Positions 7,137 to 47,727 of a stretch of 64,000 nucleotides of DNA are shown piece after piece. Under the pieces are notes generated by a model. That model had not been told where the DNA came from, ran no database searches, and saw nothing but the letters and a program-made list of their open reading frames with translations. Where the stretch lies: the IMG/VR virus record IMGVR_UViG_3300032236_001858. One strand, given 5' to 3'. The DNA comes from a virus. Lineage: Duplodnaviria > Heunggongvirae > Uroviricota > Caudoviricetes. Position numbers and translations under genes: made by a program. The first letter of the stretch is position 1. Each line of letters begins with the position of its first letter.

Positions 7137-7222
7137 GCTACGGTATGCAAACCGGAATAAGCGACCAGACTTTCAATCTGGACATCGAAAGATGTGTGCG
7201 GGTTCGAGCCCCGTCCGTAGTA
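7137..7222 (+). tRNA. tRNA with TTC anticodon and long variable arm (class II-like body)
   Basis: CCAGA-CT TTC AA-TCTGG; V-arm ACATC-GAAA-GATGT; A73. Confidence 0.75.
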
Positions 7223-7229
7223 CAAATAA

Positions 7230-7313
7230 GGGAGAGCGCCAACGTTGGAGAGTTGGGCTTGTCTGTAAAACAAGTGGCTTACGCCTGAGTGGGTTCGATT
7301 CCCACCTCTCCCA
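7230..7313 (+). tRNA. tRNA-Tyr (GTA)
   Basis: CTTGT-CT GTA AA-ACAAG, long V-arm. Confidence 0.88.
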
Positions 7314-8061: not shown

Positions 8062-8142
8062 ATGAAAAATTTAACTAACATATCAACAGCAATCATAGGA
8101 GGCGGCGCGGGAGCGAATGTCACTGGCTGGACTATGTTATAA
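8062..8142 (+). CDS. attenuator leader peptide B (Gly/Ala/Ile): MKNLTNISTAIIGGGAGANVTGWTML
   Basis: ATC ATA GGA GGC GGC GCG GGA GCG run; TCACTGGCTGG (8120-8130) pairs 11 bp with the terminator 5' arm. Confidence 0.87.
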   Translation: MKNLTNISTAIIGGGAGANVTGWTML

Positions 8143-8166: not shown

Positions 8167-8200
8167 AACCCAGTCAGTGAAAATTGACTGGGTTTTTTTA
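8167..8200 (+). terminator. attenuator terminator B
   Basis: AACCCAGTCA-GTGAAAAT-TGACTGGGTT + T tract. Confidence 0.9.
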
Positions 8201-8203
8201 TTT

Positions 8204-8287
8204 CGGCAGGTACCGATGGTGTCTTATACACACTATAACCGTAGCGGGAAGTTGAAAACGTGGGTTCGAATCCCACCCTGCCGACCA
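8204..8287 (+). ncRNA. D-armless tRNA-like RNA, anticodon TAT
   Basis: Acceptor CGGCAGG/CCTGCCG-A-CCA, canonical T arm, GGTGT-CT TAT AC-ACACT, only 7 nt where the D arm should be. Confidence 0.7.
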
Positions 8288-9120: not shown

Positions 9121-9190
9121 GGGCCAGATGCCAACGGCAGGTCAACTCGCTTGCACCGAGATTGTTTGGGTTCGATTCCCACTGTGTCCA
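9121..9190 (+). tRNA. degenerate tRNA-Ala (TGC)
   Basis: CTCG-CT TGC AC-CGAG, G3:U70, bulged acceptor stem. Confidence 0.55.
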
Positions 9191-31020: not shown

Positions 31021-31128
31021 ATGACAACAATGAATTTAAATATGAATATGAATCTAACGGTGGTGCTTAATACATTATGTATTAGACGCTCTGAGGGCTT
31101 CGTCATATCTAAACGATTTGTTGACTAA
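31021..31128 (+). CDS. attenuator leader peptide C: MTTMNLNMNMNLTVVLNTLCIRRSEGFVISKRFVD
   Basis: First 21 codons are all M/T/N/L/V/C/I; TCTGAGGGCTTCG (31090-31102) is complementary to CGAAACCCTCAGA. Confidence 0.87.
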   Translation: MTTMNLNMNMNLTVVLNTLCIRRSEGFVISKRFVD

Positions 31129-31160
31129 ATGTATAACAAATTTTATAAAGGATAAAATCG

Positions 31161-31193
31161 AAACCCTCAGACAAAAAATCTGAGGGTTTTTTT
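31161..31193 (+). terminator. attenuator terminator C
   Basis: AAACCCTCAGA-CAAAAAA-TCTGAGGGTTT + T tract. Confidence 0.9.
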
Positions 31194-31291: not shown

Positions 31292-31376
31292 TGGTAGGTA
31301 CCCGAGCGGTCTTCAGGGACTAGTCTGATATACTAGGTGAGAAATCACGACGTGGGTTCAAATCCCACCCTACCAA
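31292..31376 (+). tRNA. tRNA-Ile (GAT) with long variable arm
   Basis: CTAGT-CT GAT AT-ACTAG; V-arm GTGA-GAAA-TCAC. Confidence 0.8.
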
Positions 31377-31382
31377 CAACAT

Positions 31383-31454
31383 TCACTGGTAGCTCAGAGG
31401 CAGAGCAACCGCCTGTTAAGCGGTAGGTCGGGATATCGTAATTCACCCAGTGAG
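31383..31454 (+). tRNA. tRNA-Asn (GTT), weak T arm
   Basis: ACCGC-CT GTT AA-GCGGT; T loop ATCGTAA. Confidence 0.75.
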
Positions 31455-31460
31455 CAAAAC

Positions 31461-31539
31461 GCCTCAGTAGCCGAGGTCGCCTTCTAAGCGACTAATCGTA
31501 ACGGAACTGAAAATGTAGGTTCGAATCCTACCTGGGGTA
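31461..31539 (+). ncRNA. D-armless tRNA-like RNA, anticodon TCT
   Basis: GCCTCAG/CTGGGGT-A, GTCGC-CT TCT AA-GCGAC, canonical T arm, 8 nt in place of the D arm. Confidence 0.7.
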
Positions 31540-31594: not shown

Positions 31595-32425
31595 ATGTTA
31601 GACTTTGAAAATATTCAAAAAGACTTTGAAAGTGGTCTTTTTTATCAAAAAGATATACTAATTAAGTATAGTATATCAATTAAAAAATTAAGAACTTTTG
31701 TAAAAAAAGGTTTATTGAATAAAGAAAATTGGAAATTAAAAAAATATGAAGTAAAAAGAGAAACAAAAAAGTTAATATCAGAAGGTAGAAAAAAATGGTT
31801 GAAAGAAAATACATCTAAACATCCTTGGAGAAATGGAAATAAATCTAAGCCTTGTGAGGAGTTTAAGAAATTCTTAAAAAGTAGGAATATTTTCTTTTTG
31901 GAAGAGGTTATGATTTCAAAAGAAAGATTCTATTCGGTTGATATTTTAATACCTGAGTTCACTTCGGTTGTAGAAATTAATGGTAATCAACATTATAAAT
32001 CTAATGGAGAACTTAAAGATTACTATAGTGAAAGAAATAGTTTTATAAAAAATAAAGGATGGTCGATATATGAAGTACACTACTCAATTGTTTATAATTT
32101 AGAAATGTGTGATTCTATTTTAGAAAATATTAAAAATAATAATAAAATCGATATACCATTTTATATAAAAAATAAGAAAGAAAAAAAATATAAGAATAGG
32201 GAAGAGTACTGGAATAAAAGAAAAATTAATAAATTGAATAGTTATAGTGAAAGATTAAATGAATTAAAAAACAGTAGTATAGATTTTAAAAAGATTGGAT
32301 GGGTTAAACTAGCATCTGAGATATTAAAAGTTAAAAATGTAAATAAACTATTAAAAGAAATCGATCCAGAATTTTATAAAAATTGTTATAAAAGAAAACA
32401 AAATGCCGAGGTGGTGGAATGGTAG
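31595..32425 (+). CDS. free-standing DUF559/Vsr-like endonuclease inserted in the tRNA array (probable homing endonuclease)
   Basis: YSVDILIPE..VVEINGNQHY; Lys-rich; stop codon lies inside the tRNA-Leu D loop. Confidence 0.75.
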   Translation: MLDFENIQKDFESGLFYQKDILIKYSISIKKLRTFVKKGLLNKENWKLKKYEVKRETKKLISEGRKKWLKENTSKHPWRNGNKSKPCEEFKKFLKSRNIFFLEEVMISKERFYSVDILIPEFTSVVEINGNQHYKSNGELKDYYSERNSFIKNKGWSIYEVHYSIVYNLEMCDSILENIKNNNKIDIPFYIKNKKEKKYKNREEYWNKRKINKLNSYSERLNELKNSSIDFKKIGWVKLASEILKVKNVNKLLKEIDPEFYKNCYKRKQNAEVVEW

Positions 32426-32521: not shown

Positions 32522-32607
32522 TGATAGGTTGCCGTAGTGGCCGAACGGTCCGGACTGTTAATCCGGTGACGAATAGTCCATCGTGGGTTCGAATCCCACC
32601 CTGTCAG
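32522..32607 (+). tRNA. tRNA-Asn (GTT) with long variable arm
   Basis: CCGGA-CT GTT AA-TCCGG; V-arm GAC-GAATA-GTC; U1:A72, G73. Confidence 0.82.
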
Positions 32608-32614
32608 CAAATAT

Positions 32615-33136: not shown

Positions 33137-33220
33137 GCCGATGTGGCTCAGTGGCGACAGCACTGGTTTTGTAAACCAGAGACGAATAGTCCAACGGGGG
33201 TTCGAGTCCCTCCATCGGCT
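33137..33220 (+). tRNA. tRNA-Thr (TGT) with long variable arm
   Basis: CTGGT-TT TGT AA-ACCAG; V-arm GAC-GAATA-GTC. Confidence 0.82.
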
Positions 33221-33235
33221 CAAAATAAATCACCT

Positions 33236-33506: not shown

Positions 33507-33593
33507 CGCGGGGTAGAGTAGAGGTCAAACTCACTGGGCTCATAACCCAGGGTTGCGCAAGTGACACGTCAGGTTCGAATCCTGCCCCCGCTA
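33507..33593 (+). tRNA. initiator-type tRNA-Met (CAT) with long variable arm
   Basis: C1:U72 mismatch, CTGGG-CT CAT AA-CCCAG with three G:C pairs, extended V region. Confidence 0.8.
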
Positions 33594-33766: not shown

Positions 33767-33851
33767 GCCGGTGTGATCCGATGTGGTAATGGAGTTCGGC
33801 TCATATCCGAATTGGTTTATCCTATTGCTGGTTCGACTCCAGCCACCGGTA
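33767..33851 (+). tRNA. tRNA-Met or Ile2 (CAT) with extended variable region
   Basis: TTCGG-CT CAT AT-CCGAA; identity not resolvable by eye. Confidence 0.72.
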
Positions 33852-33856
33852 CAAAT

Positions 33857-33959: not shown

Positions 33960-34241
33960 ATGGAAAAGATTATCGACATCGTTAGAGATAACGTTGCAAG
34001 ATTCGACTGGGCTTCTGAAGGAGTCCTCTACTACAAAGTAGAAACTGAAAAATATATCTATCACTTCCCAGTAGATATGAATAACAAAGAAGATGTGGGA
34101 ACAGCTAATTTTGAATCAGAACATAAGGCTATAAATCTTATGAGATATTTAAGAAAAGCATCAGAAAACTTAGAAAAAATTAAAAACGATTCAGGTACGC
34201 CTGATTGGAAAAAGACATTAAGAGTTACACAAAAAGTATGA
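33960..34241 (+). CDS. hypothetical protein
   Basis: 93-aa ORF coupled (ATGA) to LeuRS. Confidence 0.7.
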   Translation: MEKIIDIVRDNVARFDWASEGVLYYKVETEKYIYHFPVDMNNKEDVGTANFESEHKAINLMRYLRKASENLEKIKNDSGTPDWKKTLRVTQKV

Positions 34242-35503
34242 AAGATGAAAAGTATATATGCGTTATGTTTCCTTACCCAAGTGGTTCGGGATTGCATGTA
34301 GGTCACTTTTATAATTATGCTATAATTGATTCTTATTGTAGATACTTTAAATACAAAGGTCAACAAGTTTTTCAACCTTTTGGTTATGATGCCTTTGGTT
34401 TGCCGGCTGAAAACTATGCTAGAAAAGTAGGTCGTGATGCTAAAGATGTTACCTATGAAAACATCAGTCAATTTAGAAAACAGATGGAAAAGATGGATAC
34501 CAACTATCAAGAAATGTTGGTAACATCTGATCCTTCTTATCAAAAATGGACACAATGGTTGTTTTTGAAATTGAAAGAACATGGCTTGGCTTATAAAAAA
34601 GATGGTGAAGTAAATTGGTGTCCTTCTTGTGAAACCGTATTGGCTCGTGAACAAGTTAAATCTGATTGTTGTGAAAGATGTTCAACTAAGGTAGAAATGA
34701 AAACAATGAATCAGTGGTACTTTAAGATTACTGATTATAAAGAACGTTTGATTAAAAACTTGGATTGGATAGATTATCCAAAATCAACTATTAACGCGCA
34801 AAGAATGTGGTTGGAAAACTTGCACGATTGGTGTGTTTCTCGTCAAAGAAAATGGGGCTGTCCAATTCCAATAGAAGGTGAAACCGATACAATGGATACA
34901 TTTGTAGATTCTTCATTTTACTATGTTAGATATTGTGATGCTACTAATGATAATGAATTGTGTGCTAAAGATAAATATAAACAAGTAGATGTTTATGTTG
35001 GTGGTAATGAACACGCTTGTATGCACTTGATTTATGCTCGTTTTATTAATATGTTTTTGTATGATATTGGTGTTGTTTCAGAGGAAGAACCATTTAAGAA
35101 AGTTATACATCAAGGTATAATTTTGAACGAAGGTGAAAAAATGTCTAAAACAAAAGGTAATGTTATTAATCCAGATGATTATGACTCTGATGAATTGAGA
35201 TTTTATATGATGTTTATTGGTCATTATTTTGATGGTGGTTCTTGGTCTGACCAAAATATAGCTGGTATTAAAAGATTTATTAGTCGTTTTAAGGAGTGGA
35301 TGTCAAGAGAAGGTTCTGATACTTTTGATATTGAATCATTTAAGAAAAAAATATTTAACTACACTGAGAGTTTTAAGTTTAATAAAGTTGTTAGTGAGTT
35401 TATGACAATAGTTAATCAAAATAGAACTAAAAACATAACACCTGAGATAAAAAAAGAATTGATTGAATTGATTAAGGTGTATATGCCTGGAATTAAAATT
35501 TAA
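34238..35503 (+). CDS. leuS: minimal leucyl-tRNA synthetase (421 aa)
   Basis: MFPYPSG..LHVGH, GYDAFGLPAEN, Zn knuckle CPSC/CERC, DWCVSRQRKWG, MDTFVDSSFY, GGNEHA, KMSKT. Confidence 0.9.
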   Translation: MKDEKYICVMFPYPSGSGLHVGHFYNYAIIDSYCRYFKYKGQQVFQPFGYDAFGLPAENYARKVGRDAKDVTYENISQFRKQMEKMDTNYQEMLVTSDPSYQKWTQWLFLKLKEHGLAYKKDGEVNWCPSCETVLAREQVKSDCCERCSTKVEMKTMNQWYFKITDYKERLIKNLDWIDYPKSTINAQRMWLENLHDWCVSRQRKWGCPIPIEGETDTMDTFVDSSFYYVRYCDATNDNELCAKDKYKQVDVYVGGNEHACMHLIYARFINMFLYDIGVVSEEEPFKKVIHQGIILNEGEKMSKTKGNVINPDDYDSDELRFYMMFIGHYFDGGSWSDQNIAGIKRFISRFKEWMSREGSDTFDIESFKKKIFNYTESFKFNKVVSEFMTIVNQNRTKNITPEIKKELIELIKVYMPGIKI

Positions 35504-46845: not shown

Positions 46846-46919
46846 CGAGAAGTGACTAAGGTTTTAAGCACGCGCCGTCTGGAGCGGTGAGTTAGCAGGT
46901 TCGATTCCTGTCTTCTCGA
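46846..46919 (+). tRNA. tRNA-Pro (TGG) with C33
   Basis: CGCCG-TC TGG AG-CGGTG; C1:G72, A73. Confidence 0.72.
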
Positions 46920-47639: not shown

Positions 47640-47721
47640 TGAGGAATAGAATAATGGCAGTTCACCCGCCTTTGAAGCGGAGAGAGAAATCTCAGTGTAG
47701 GTTCGAGTCCTACTTCCTCAA
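47640..47721 (+). tRNA. tRNA-Gln (TTG) with long variable arm
   Basis: CCGC-CT TTG AA-GCGG; V-arm GAGA-GAAA-TCTC. Confidence 0.82.
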
Positions 47722-47727
47722 CAAAAT

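What the first reader, a model, noticed from the sequence alone, without database searches (positions are those of the whole stretch)
31461..31539. Second D-armless element (UCU) shares a conserved variable-region signature with the first
Same fold as 8204-8287. The short connector contains CCGA in both. Variable regions align: TAACCGTAGCGGGAAGTTGAAAAC vs TAATCGTAACGGAACTGAAAAT. Acceptor and anticodon stems differ entirely yet stay paired, which indicates a selected RNA family rather than two decayed tRNAs. Leader C has an AGA codon just before its antiterminator. Possible roles (inference): non-standard adaptor, nuclease decoy or ligand for a repair protein.
Basis: partly seen in the sequence, partly recalled or inferred. 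Interest (0 to 1): 0.75.

Follow-up and report, generated by a model that had tools for sequence, protein, structure and literature searches.

The report
Two rewired phage tRNAs (Ile, Arg)
The two "D-armless" elements are very probably working isoleucine (AUA) and arginine (AGA) tRNAs of a 476-kb phage; their D-arm is not lost but rebuilt in a different chain order, a non-cloverleaf design shared by many phages that ARAGORN did not call here.

Summary
Elements at 8204-8284 (anticodon UAU) and 31461-31539 (UCU) share one unusual fold and belong to a real family.

A covariance model built from phage homologues scores them 87.9 and 83.1 bits. Every ordinary tRNA of this genome scores below 40 bits.

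I collected 60 distinct members from 38 phage loci. Cultured Vibrio and Microbacterium phages carry model-confirmed members, and a Streptomyces phage carries a divergent one read by eye; none is annotated as a tRNA. Anticodons are only Arg (UCU, UCG, ACG, CCU) or Ile (UAU, GAU).

"D-armless with a variable-region hairpin" is wrong. Three connector bases pair with three bases just 3' of the anticodon arm (60/60, 60/60 and 52/60 paired, with compensatory changes).

That strand is followed by a D-loop-like U-A-R-Y-G-G-N. Its R covaries with the base before the T stem as the 15:48 Levitt pair does. N is A in 34/34 Arg members, matching the bacterial ArgRS determinant A20.

So half of the D-arm has moved behind the anticodon arm.

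Specific to this window: the Ile element is the first gene behind a leader-peptide attenuator. In five related phages the leader's Ile codons are mostly AUA.

This scan met the family earlier on other DNA. I found no paper describing it. No RNA or charging data exist.

The parts
8204..8287 (+). Rewired tRNA-Ile(UAU), element 1. Acceptor 8204-8210 pairs with 8277-8283. U8 A9 are 8211-8212. A73 is 8284 and the encoded CCA is 8285-8287.
   Evidence: RF00005 34.8 bits with the D-arm deleted. Family model R1 87.9 bits. Not called by ARAGORN.
8214..8216 (+). Element 1, 5' strand of the long-range D-stem (C-G-A).
   Evidence: It pairs with 8239-8241: C8214-G8241 and G8215-C8240, with A8216 opposite C8239 as a mismatch. 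This is one of only 4 A-C cells among 60 members.
8218..8234 (+). Element 1 anticodon arm. The 5-bp stem is extended by U8217-A8235. The loop is CUUAUAC, with anticodon UAU at 8225-8227.
   Evidence: U33 and A37 are invariant in the family.
8239..8259 (+). Element 1, 3' strand of the D-stem (8239-8241), then the invariant U (8242). The displaced D-loop follows: A14 at 8243, G15 at 8244, C at 8245, G18 G19 at 8246-8247, G20 at 8248. The linker is 8249-8258 and C48 is 8259.
   Evidence: U-A-R-Y-G-G-N is present in all 60 members. G15 with C48 fits the Levitt-pair covariation.
8260..8276 (+). Element 1 T arm (GUGGG / UUCGAAU / CCCAC).
31461..31539 (+). Rewired tRNA-Arg(UCU), element 2. Acceptor 31461-31467 pairs with 31532-31538. 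U8 A9 are 31468-31469. A73 is 31539. No CCA is encoded.
   Evidence: RF00005 36.6 bits with the D-arm deleted. R1 83.1 bits. Not called by ARAGORN. An identical copy lies on another phage contig (L037).
31472..31474 (+). Element 2, 5' strand of the long-range D-stem (C-G-A).
   Evidence: It pairs with 31496-31498 (U-C-G) as three Watson-Crick pairs. The single-sequence minimum-energy fold also contains this helix.
31476..31492 (+). Element 2 anticodon arm. The loop is CUUCUAA, with anticodon UCU at 31483-31485. G31475 pairs with U31493 as a 26:44 wobble.
31496..31514 (+). Element 2, 3' strand of the D-stem (31496-31498), then the invariant U (31499). The displaced D-loop follows: A14 at 31500, A15 at 31501, C at 31502, G18 G19 at 31503-31504, A20 at 31505. 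The linker is 31506-31513 and U48 is 31514.
   Evidence: A15 with U48 fits the Levitt covariation. A20 is present, as in 34/34 Arg members.
31515..31531 (+). Element 2 T arm (GUAGG / UUCGAAU / CCUAC).
8062..8142 (+). Leader peptide B (MKNLTNISTAIIGGGAGANVTGWTML). Its Ile codons are ATA at 8080-8082, ATC at 8092-8094 and ATA at 8095-8097.
   Evidence: The same leader-plus-terminator-plus-rewired-tRNA-Ile(UAU) layout occurs in four related phage contigs, with 12 of 16 leader Ile codons being AUA.
8167..8199 (+). Terminator hairpin and T-run of attenuator B, ending 4 nt before element 1.
   Evidence: Read from the sequence. It is conserved in L015, L016, L052 and L066.
31021..31193 (+). Leader peptide C (31021-31128, with AGA at 31084-31086) and its terminator (about 31162-31193), upstream of the array that contains element 2.

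Best explanation
Both elements are tRNA genes of a phage-borne class in which the D-arm is rewired, not lost. After U8-A9, a 3-nt strand runs straight into the anticodon arm. Its partner strand lies just 3' of the anticodon arm, so the D-stem forms as a long-range helix that encloses that arm. A D-loop-like segment (U, A14, R15, one or two Y, G18 G19, N20) follows the partner strand. An 8-12 nt linker ending in Y48 then leads into a normal T arm. Inferred: the usual tertiary contacts (U8:A14, R15:Y48, G18G19 with the T loop) rebuild a normal L-shape. Also inferred: host IleRS and ArgRS charge the two RNAs, since the phage encodes neither enzyme, and they decode AUA and AGA, two of this AT-rich phage's commonest codons. 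Element 1 lies behind a leader-peptide attenuator with AUA codons in its leader, so its output would rise when AUA decoding is slow. Shown here: family membership, the helix and 15:48 covariation, the identity-element pattern, and the gene context. Inferred: expression, folding, charging and use on the ribosome.
For: 1. Family: model R1 finds 60 distinct members in 38 phage loci. They span 39-65% GC. Cultured Vibrio phage D260 and Microbacterium phage Pumpernickel carry model-confirmed members at unannotated sites. Streptomyces phage LilMartin carries a divergent one (37 bits, below my cut-off) that I assigned by reading its sequence.
2. Long-range helix: the three pairs are 60/60, 60/60 and 52/60 paired, with GC 47 / AU 8 / CG 5 and AU 21 / GC 19 / CG 6 / UA 4 exchanges. 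No shuffle of 5000 reaches the observed pairing, and slid partners pair at 54% or less. The model had no pairs there, so the alignment was not fitted to this helix. RNAalifold predicts the helix de novo.
3. Tertiary core: U8, A9, the U after the helix, A14, G19, U33, A37 and the T loop are invariant or nearly so. R15/Y48 are A-U 37, G-C 21, G-G 2, with no A-C or G-U, and this holds within each amino-acid class.
4. Identity: anticodons are only Arg (34) or Ile (26). N20 is A in 34/34 Arg members and U or G in 25/26 Ile members. A73 is present in 26/26 Ile members and A/G/U73 in Arg members. This matches the bacterial sets in Giege and Eriani 2023 (PMC9976931).
5. Demand: AUA is 32.8% of Ile codons and AGA is 79.8% of Arg codons in this phage. 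ARAGORN finds no cloverleaf tRNA-Ile(UAU) in the genome.
6. Regulatory logic: in five related phages the rewired tRNA-Ile(UAU) directly follows a leader-peptide attenuator. Leader Ile codons are AUA 12/16, against 0.328 genome-wide (binomial p = 6.7e-4).
7. No ArgRS or IleRS gene is present in the phage. That fits the retention of host-type identity elements.
Against: No RNA-level evidence exists: there is no expression, processing, modification, charging or ribosome data. The L-shape is inferred from sequence and covariation only, because no 3D model could be built here. Element 1 has an A-C mismatch in the third helix pair, leaving two Watson-Crick pairs. The phage also has a cloverleaf tRNA-Arg(UCU) at genome position 385735-385807, so element 2 is not strictly needed. 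The Ile determinants U12-A23, G16 and U20/U21 are only partly mirrored; element 1 has G at position 20. The members are related sequences, so counts of cells overstate the number of independent events. The leader-codon test uses five related phages that are not independent.
Confidence: 0.8

Rival explanations
1. They are tRNA mimics that are not used in translation. They would act as decoys or sponges for host tRNA-targeting nucleases, or as ligands for a phage RNA-repair or modification enzyme.
For: They occur in phages, which are known targets of anticodon nucleases (general knowledge). The family is limited to two amino-acid classes. In Pumpernickel, an RtcB-like ligase gene lies about 2 kb upstream of the element.
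Against: A decoy would not need A20 in 34/34 Arg members, A73 in 26/26 Ile members, a complete 12-bp acceptor/T branch, U33, A37, or six different sense anticodons. The AUA codons in the leaders upstream of the Ile(UAU) member argue for decoding. I tested no co-occurrence with a nuclease or ligase gene.
Confidence: 0.1
2. One reading: a truly D-armless tRNA-like RNA, with a short unpaired connector and a small hairpin (YCG-UAR-CGG) in an enlarged variable region.
For: The single-sequence minimum-energy fold of element 1 draws that hairpin. In both window copies the hairpin can form.
Against: Across 60 members the hairpin pairs are broken in 14, 14 and 4 sequences and show 0, 1 and 1 compensatory changes. 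The competing long-range helix is 60/60, 60/60 and 52/60 paired with many compensatory changes. Members with UAAUUGG, UAAUGG or UAAAGG cannot form the hairpin at all.
Confidence: 0.03
3. They are decaying tRNA pseudogenes that lost the D-arm by deletion.
For: Low RF00005 scores (35-37 bits), and no call by ARAGORN.
Against: The same architecture is conserved in 60 distinct sequences from phages of at least three host phyla. All four helices show compensatory changes and the tertiary positions are invariant. Synteny with an attenuator is conserved.
Confidence: 0.02

Closest known systems
Canonical class I bacterial and phage tRNA-Ile and tRNA-Arg (Rfam RF00005 cloverleaf), for example this phage's own tRNA-Arg(UCU) at genome position 385735-385807
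   Same: They share a 7-bp acceptor stem, a 5-bp T arm with GGUUCGAAUCC, and a 5-bp anticodon stem with a 7-nt loop holding U33 and A37. They also share U8, A14, R15:Y48 and G18G19. A20 is present in Arg members, with A/G/U73 in Arg and A73 in Ile. Both window elements exceed the RF00005 gathering score.
   Different: There is no D hairpin between positions 9 and 26. One D-stem strand and the D-loop lie after the anticodon arm, so the D-stem encloses that arm and the secondary structure is not a cloverleaf. The stretch between the anticodon arm and the T arm is 21-25 nt instead of 4-5 nt. The stems of element 2 show no resemblance to those of the phage's cloverleaf tRNA-Arg(UCU).
Metazoan mitochondrial D-armless tRNAs (mammalian mt-tRNA-Ser(AGY), Ascaris mt-tRNA-Ser(UCU)), as reviewed in PMC7609411
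   Same: A short connector replaces the D hairpin, and the anticodon helix is effectively lengthened. One of them even has the anticodon UCU.
   Different: The mitochondrial species lack the D-stem, G18G19 and the D-loop/T-loop contact, and they need adapted mitochondrial factors (PMC7609411). The phage family keeps a covarying D-stem, a D-loop-like motif, a canonical T loop and bacterial identity elements.
Allo-tRNAs and other (8/4) or (9/3) non-canonical bacterial and phage tRNAs (Mukai et al. 2017, PMC5389517)
   Same: They are natural non-standard tRNAs found in bacteria and phages. UAU is also a frequent anticodon among allo-tRNAs.
   Different: Allo-tRNAs change the acceptor/T-stem lengths and carry a long variable arm, but they remain cloverleaves with a D hairpin. 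Here the branch is a standard 7/5 and it is the D-arm topology that changes.
Leader-peptide attenuators of amino-acid operons (trpL, hisL, ilvL), as context for element 1
   Same: There is a short ORF rich in the relevant codons, an alternative antiterminator pairing, and an intrinsic terminator directly before the regulated genes.
   Different: The regulated genes are tRNA genes. The first of them is the rewired tRNA-Ile(UAU), and the leader uses its cognate AUA codon. Earlier reports of this scan covered the attenuator itself.

Membership tests
tRNA (Rfam RF00005) | Score at or above the curated gathering threshold (29 bits) | tested here: met
   The scores are 36.6 bits (31461-31539) and 34.8 bits (8204-8284). 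Both alignments skip the D-arm through a local deletion.
tRNA (Rfam RF00005) | Acceptor stem of 7 bp, T arm of 5 bp with a GTTCRANYC loop, and anticodon stem of 5 bp with a 7-nt loop holding U33 and purine 37 | tested here: met
   All are present in both elements. Across the family, helices are 85-99% paired with compensatory changes, and U33 and A37 are 60/60.
tRNA (Rfam RF00005) | D hairpin (stem 10-13/22-25 closing the D-loop) between position 9 and position 26, that is, the cloverleaf topology | tested here: not met
   Only 4-6 nt lie between A9 and the anticodon stem.
tRNA (Rfam RF00005) | Conserved tertiary set: U8:A14, R15:Y48, and G18G19 facing the T loop | tested here: met
   All residues are present, but A14 to N20 lie after the anticodon arm. 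R15/Y48 are A-U 37, G-C 21 and G-G 2. Whether these contacts form in 3D was not testable.
tRNA (functional adaptor) | Processed, aminoacylated and used on the ribosome | not testable with these tools
   Support is indirect only: the identity elements, codon demand and AUA-rich leaders.
Rewired-D-arm phage tRNA-Arg/Ile class (unpublished; defined here and in earlier reports of this scan) | A 3-bp helix between the post-A9 connector and the strand just 3' of the anticodon arm | tested here: met
   Element 2 has three Watson-Crick pairs. Element 1 has two Watson-Crick pairs plus an A-C mismatch.
Rewired-D-arm phage tRNA-Arg/Ile class | U-A-R-Y(1-2)-G-G-N directly after that strand, and Y48 before the T stem | tested here: met
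   Element 1 reads U-A-G-C-G-G-G ... C48. Element 2 reads U-A-A-C-G-G-A ... U48.
Rewired-D-arm phage tRNA-Arg/Ile class | Arg or Ile anticodon, with A20 in Arg members and A73 in Ile members | tested here: met
   Element 1 has UAU with A73. Element 2 has UCU with A20.
Rewired-D-arm phage tRNA-Arg/Ile class | High score with the family covariance model, separated from cloverleaf tRNAs | tested here: met
   The scores are 87.9 and 83.1 bits, against 38.8 or less for all other tRNAs of the genome. Both elements were in the seed alignment, so part of their score is by construction.
Mitochondrial-type D-armless tRNA | Loss of the D-stem and of the G18G19/T-loop interaction | tested here: not met
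   A covarying replacement D-stem, an invariant GG and a canonical T loop are all present.

The most novel reading that the evidence does not exclude
The rewired topology is adaptive and not a neutral oddity. It would let phage Ile and Arg tRNAs keep host synthetase, EF-Tu and ribosome compatibility while escaping something that reads the normal D-arm. Candidates are a host tRNA-targeting defence nuclease, a host modification dependency, or the phage's own attack on host tRNAs. In this huge phage, production would also be tuned by leader-peptide attenuators that sense AUA (and perhaps AGA) decoding. Together this would form a self-regulating, defence-proof supply of adaptors for the phage's commonest rare codons. 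It would also be the first natural non-cloverleaf tRNA class working with bacterial ribosomes.
Probability: 0.25. Interest if true: 0.92.

Novelty: new variant of a known kind. Interest (0 to 1): 0.8.

Why it matters
The cloverleaf is treated as universal outside organelles. [quoted passage not shown] A conserved phage class that rebuilds the same tertiary core from a different chain order would show otherwise. It would mean that bacterial synthetases, EF-Tu and ribosomes accept another topology.

It would give ready-made scaffolds for orthogonal tRNA engineering. It would also mean phage tRNA repertoires are undercounted, especially the AUA and AGA decoders used in codon-usage arguments. ARAGORN missed both elements in this genome. 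Curated cultured-phage records leave the slot empty or place a CDS over it.

This window adds a regulatory link, an AUA-rich attenuator leader directly in front of the rewired tRNA-Ile(UAU). That link makes the decoding role testable genetically.

Tried and rejected
1. I rejected it on covariation.

2. Connector pairing with the second CGG. It shows 9-11 broken cells per pair and little compensation, so I rejected it.

3. A fourth pair between N10 and the invariant U. Only 9/60 cells pair, so this is not a Watson-Crick pair.

4. Pseudogenes. I rejected this reading because of conservation and covariation.

5. More copies in this genome. There are none above 40 bits beyond the two.

6. Bacterial genomes. 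The pattern that gave about 45 family members among 74 viral hits gave 80 inspected bacterial loci with no R1 score of 48 bits or more. The best hit, 43.5 bits in L122, is a cloverleaf class II tRNA-Leu.

7. Phage-encoded ArgRS or IleRS that might be co-adapted. None was found. The only class Ia enzyme is a 432-aa LeuRS-like protein.

8. Recent derivation of element 2 from the phage's cloverleaf tRNA-Arg(UCU). The stems show no similarity.

9. Literature. Seven full-text searches and reads of two reviews of non-canonical tRNAs found no description of such phage tRNAs. The library lacks most subscription journals.

10. The neighbouring ORF 31595-32425 gave only a sub-threshold RAP-domain hit, and I did not pursue it.

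11. I built no 3D model, because no RNA tertiary-structure tool was available.

Full report
**1. What is in the window**

The window is bases 224490-288489 of a 476-kb phage record that CheckV rates 97% complete. The sequence is about 30% GC. It carries several dense tRNA arrays. ARAGORN tRNA genes in the window and 53 in the genome, and RF00005 gives 59 matches genome-wide.

The flagged element (31461-31539, "element 2") and its twin (8204-8284, "element 1") both lie inside such arrays, on the same strand as their neighbours.

Rfam's tRNA model matches both elements (36.6 and 34.8 bits against a threshold of 29). It does so only by skipping the 15-position D-arm, which is replaced by 5 and 4 nt, and by inserting 19-22 nt before the T arm. 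ARAGORN finds neither.

Acceptor, anticodon and T helices are intact. The anticodon loops are CUUAUAC (UAU, Ile codon AUA) and CUUCUAA (UCU, Arg codon AGA). Element 1 also has an encoded CCA at 8285-8287.

**2. The family is real and widespread in phages**

I scanned IMG/VR for the shared motif plus the T loop (CGTARCGG, a gap of 8-20, GGTTCGAATCC). This gave 74 loci, and about 45 showed the same architecture.

I aligned 35 of them and built a covariance model, R1. It has pairs only in the acceptor, anticodon and T helices, and none in the disputed region.

In this genome R1 scores the two elements 87.9 and 83.1 bits, and all other tRNAs score 38.8 or less. The two elements were in the seed alignment, so part of their score is by construction.

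R1 was then run on the records behind the loci. It found further members that lack the exact motif, with up to five above about 48 bits in one phage contig.

After de-replication there are 60 distinct members from 38 loci, at 39-65% GC and 73-91 nt long.

Cultured carriers, each at a position with no tRNA annotation:
- Vibrio phage D260. The element sits in an unannotated 95-nt slot inside its tRNA array, has anticodon ACG, and has an encoded CCA.
- Microbacterium phage Pumpernickel, with anticodon UCU.
- Streptomyces phage LilMartin, with anticodon GAU and a CCC:GGG version of the helix. R1 scores this copy only 37 bits, below the cut-off I used elsewhere, and I assigned it to the family by reading its sequence. 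BLAST hits in the related phages MulchMansion, Angela and Coruscant were not inspected.

The published 642-kb metagenomic phage LR756502 has three members in one 24-kb stretch.

The same DNA pattern in bacterial genomes returned 80 loci for inspection. None reaches 48 bits with R1, and they are cloverleaf class II tRNAs.

**3. The fold is not D-armless**

The extra members provide the variation needed to choose between pairings.

- **The long-range helix.** Connector positions 11-13 pair with the three bases immediately 5' of an invariant U-A. The counts are 60/60 (CG 57, UA 3), 60/60 (GC 47, AU 8, CG 5) and 52/60 (AU 21, GC 19, CG 6, UA 4, plus wobbles).
- **Controls.** No shuffle of 5000 reaches the observed 172/180 paired cells (shuffle mean 131). 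Sliding the partner by 1-3 columns gives 54% or less. The alignment came from a model with no pairs in this region, so it was not fitted to the helix. RNAalifold predicts the helix on its own.
YCG-UAR-CGG breaks in 14, 14 and 4 of 60 sequences and shows 0, 1 and 1 compensatory changes. Members with UAAUUGG, UAAUGG or UAAAGG cannot form it at all.
- **Connector with the second CGG.** This pairing fails in the same way.

**4. What follows the helix is a D-loop**

In all 60 members the 3' helix strand is followed by U, A, R, one or two (rarely three) bases, G, G, N. This is the pattern A14 R15 Y16 (Y17) G18 G19 N20 of a normal D-loop.

Three observations support that reading.
- U8, the A at "14" and the GG are invariant, and the T loop keeps its canonical sequence.
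- The R at "15" covaries with the last base before the T stem ("48"): A-U 37, G-C 21, G-G 2, and never A-C or G-U. The rule holds inside each class: Arg has A-U 29 and G-C 3, and Ile has G-C 18 and A-U 7. This is the signature of the 15:48 Levitt pair (named in PMC10424219).
- N "20" is A in 34/34 Arg members and U or G in 25/26 Ile members.

A20 is the main determinant for bacterial ArgRS. U20 (D20) is among the Ile determinants (Giege and Eriani 2023, PMC9976931). The discriminator is A in 26/26 Ile members and A, G or U in Arg members, which again fits the bacterial sets.

So every part of a D-arm is present. The strand equivalent to 10-13 and the D-loop now lie after the anticodon arm. The strand after A9 plays the part of 22-25.

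That this rebuilds the normal L-shape is an inference from these conserved contacts. I could not model it in 3D.

**5. The two window copies**

Element 2 has all three helix pairs (31472-31474 with 31496-31498), A15 with U48, A20 and A73. Its single-sequence minimum-energy fold already contains the helix.

Element 1 has two Watson-Crick pairs plus an A-C mismatch (8216 opposite 8239), G15 with C48, G at position 20, A73 and CCA. It is a slightly weaker but high-scoring member.

**6. Function**

The anticodons of the family are restricted to Arg (UCU 22, UCG 8, ACG 3, CCU 1) and Ile (UAU 18, GAU 8).

In this phage AUA makes up 32.8% of Ile codons (26.7 per thousand). AGA makes up 79.8% of Arg codons (25.6 per thousand). 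ARAGORN finds no cloverleaf tRNA-Ile(UAU) in the genome. A cloverleaf tRNA-Arg(UCU) exists far away, at 385735-385807, and its stems do not resemble those of element 2.

The phage has no ArgRS and no IleRS. Its only class Ia enzyme is a 432-aa LeuRS-like protein. Charging would therefore fall to the host enzymes, which fits the retained host-type identity elements.

**7. Evidence specific to this window**

Element 1 starts 4 nt after the terminator of a leader-peptide attenuator. The leader runs 8062-8142 and the terminator about 8167-8199.

The same layout (leader, terminator, rewired tRNA-Ile(UAU)) is found in four related phage contigs: L015, L016, L052 and L066. The leaders' Ile codons are AUA in 12 of 16 cases, including a conserved N-I(AUA)-S and an I(AUA) at the head of the Gly/Ala-rich block. 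The genome-wide AUA share is 0.328, giving a binomial p of 6.7e-4. The five phages are related, so this p-value overstates the independence of the data.

The operon behind this leader has no other Ile tRNA. The Ile codons in the leader make regulatory sense only if element 1 decodes them.

For element 2, leader C does have AGA (31084-31086) just before its antiterminator. AGA is the default Arg codon here, so that says little.

**8. Rivals**

- A decoy or ligand role is possible. It does not explain the synthetase determinants, the full acceptor/T branch, or the AUA-rich leaders.
- Pseudogenes and the literal D-armless fold are contradicted by covariation.
- Why the topology changed is unknown. 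Escape from something that reads the normal D-arm is an attractive guess, and I did not test it.

**9. Known or new**

My full-text searches and two reviews of non-canonical tRNAs give no phage or bacterial tRNA of this kind. A 2024 paper states that all known bacterial tRNAs are cloverleaves.

I reached the rewired-D-arm reading. I then looked up this scan's own notes. At least a dozen earlier follow-up reports on other phage DNA describe the same class, and a related Tyr class, and also found no paper. One early report carries the mark "part of it fell", without saying which part.

Those notes agree with my result, but they are not independent experimental evidence.

This report adds two new members, an independent covariation test, and the attenuator/AUA link. 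It also adds the absence of phage ArgRS and IleRS, and codon-demand figures for this genome.

**10. Verdict**

The best explanation is that these are functional tRNA-Ile(UAU) and tRNA-Arg(UCU) with a transposed D-loop and a long-range D-stem (confidence 0.8). This is a new variant of a known kind, of high interest to tRNA and phage specialists, and it awaits RNA-level proof.

Noticed in passing
window 7137-7223 (Glu), 31292-31377 (Ile GAU), 32522-32608 (Asn), 33137-33221 (Thr), 33508-33592 and 33767-33852 (Met), 47640-47722 (Gln); genome 219872-220138 (three Lys): Many tRNAs with anticodons of class I amino acids are 83-88 nt long and carry a long variable arm, beside normal-length twins. The Asn and Thr copies share almost the same arm (GAC-GAAUA-GUC-CA). 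In bacteria, long variable arms normally mark Leu, Ser and Tyr tRNAs only.
   Followed up: no
window 31595-32425 (+): A 276-aa ORF lies between element 2 and the next tRNA genes. It has only a sub-threshold RAP-domain hit (E 0.0013) and no NCBIfam match. It may be a nuclease-like insert in the array.
   Followed up: partly
window 34205-35503 (+): A 432-aa class Ia synthetase is closest to bacterial LeuRS (TIGR00396, 399 bits against a cut-off of 548) but is only about half its length. It is the only PF00133 protein in the phage. No ArgRS is present.
   Followed up: partly
window 31383-31454 (+): This cloverleaf tRNA (anticodon GUU) has an unusual T loop (AUCGUAA) and is missed by ARAGORN. In related phages (L037 11181-11259 and L228 11997-12075) the slot just upstream of the rewired Arg(UCU) holds a rewired tRNA-Ile(GAU) instead.
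   Followed up: partly
L071 4580-4670 and L063 6559-6648: These two sequences (the first a borderline 38.8-bit hit) carry about 10 extra nt in the linker between the displaced D-loop and the T arm (…GGUAUCUUGCGAUAACUUCAAAU…). The insert may form an additional small hairpin.
   Followed up: no
Streptomyces phage Coruscant MT711976 73031-73094; LilMartin L227 2995-3072: In Coruscant the BLAST match to a rewired tRNA-Ile lies under the annotated start of an 'FtsK-like DNA translocase' CDS. In LilMartin the element sits in the unannotated gap just before that gene and just after a nucleotidyltransferase gene.
   Followed up: partly
window 9122-9190, 46846-46919 and 7246-7313 (+): These are further weak tRNA-like matches (27.8-29.6 bits with RF00005). 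They may be other atypical tRNAs or decayed copies.
   Followed up: no
L035 5811-5893 and L054 1839-1920: These Arg(UCU) members have a GCG connector and a 12-14 nt stretch, instead of 4-6 nt, between the anticodon stem and the 3' helix strand. They appear to be a longer-bulge subtype.
   Followed up: no
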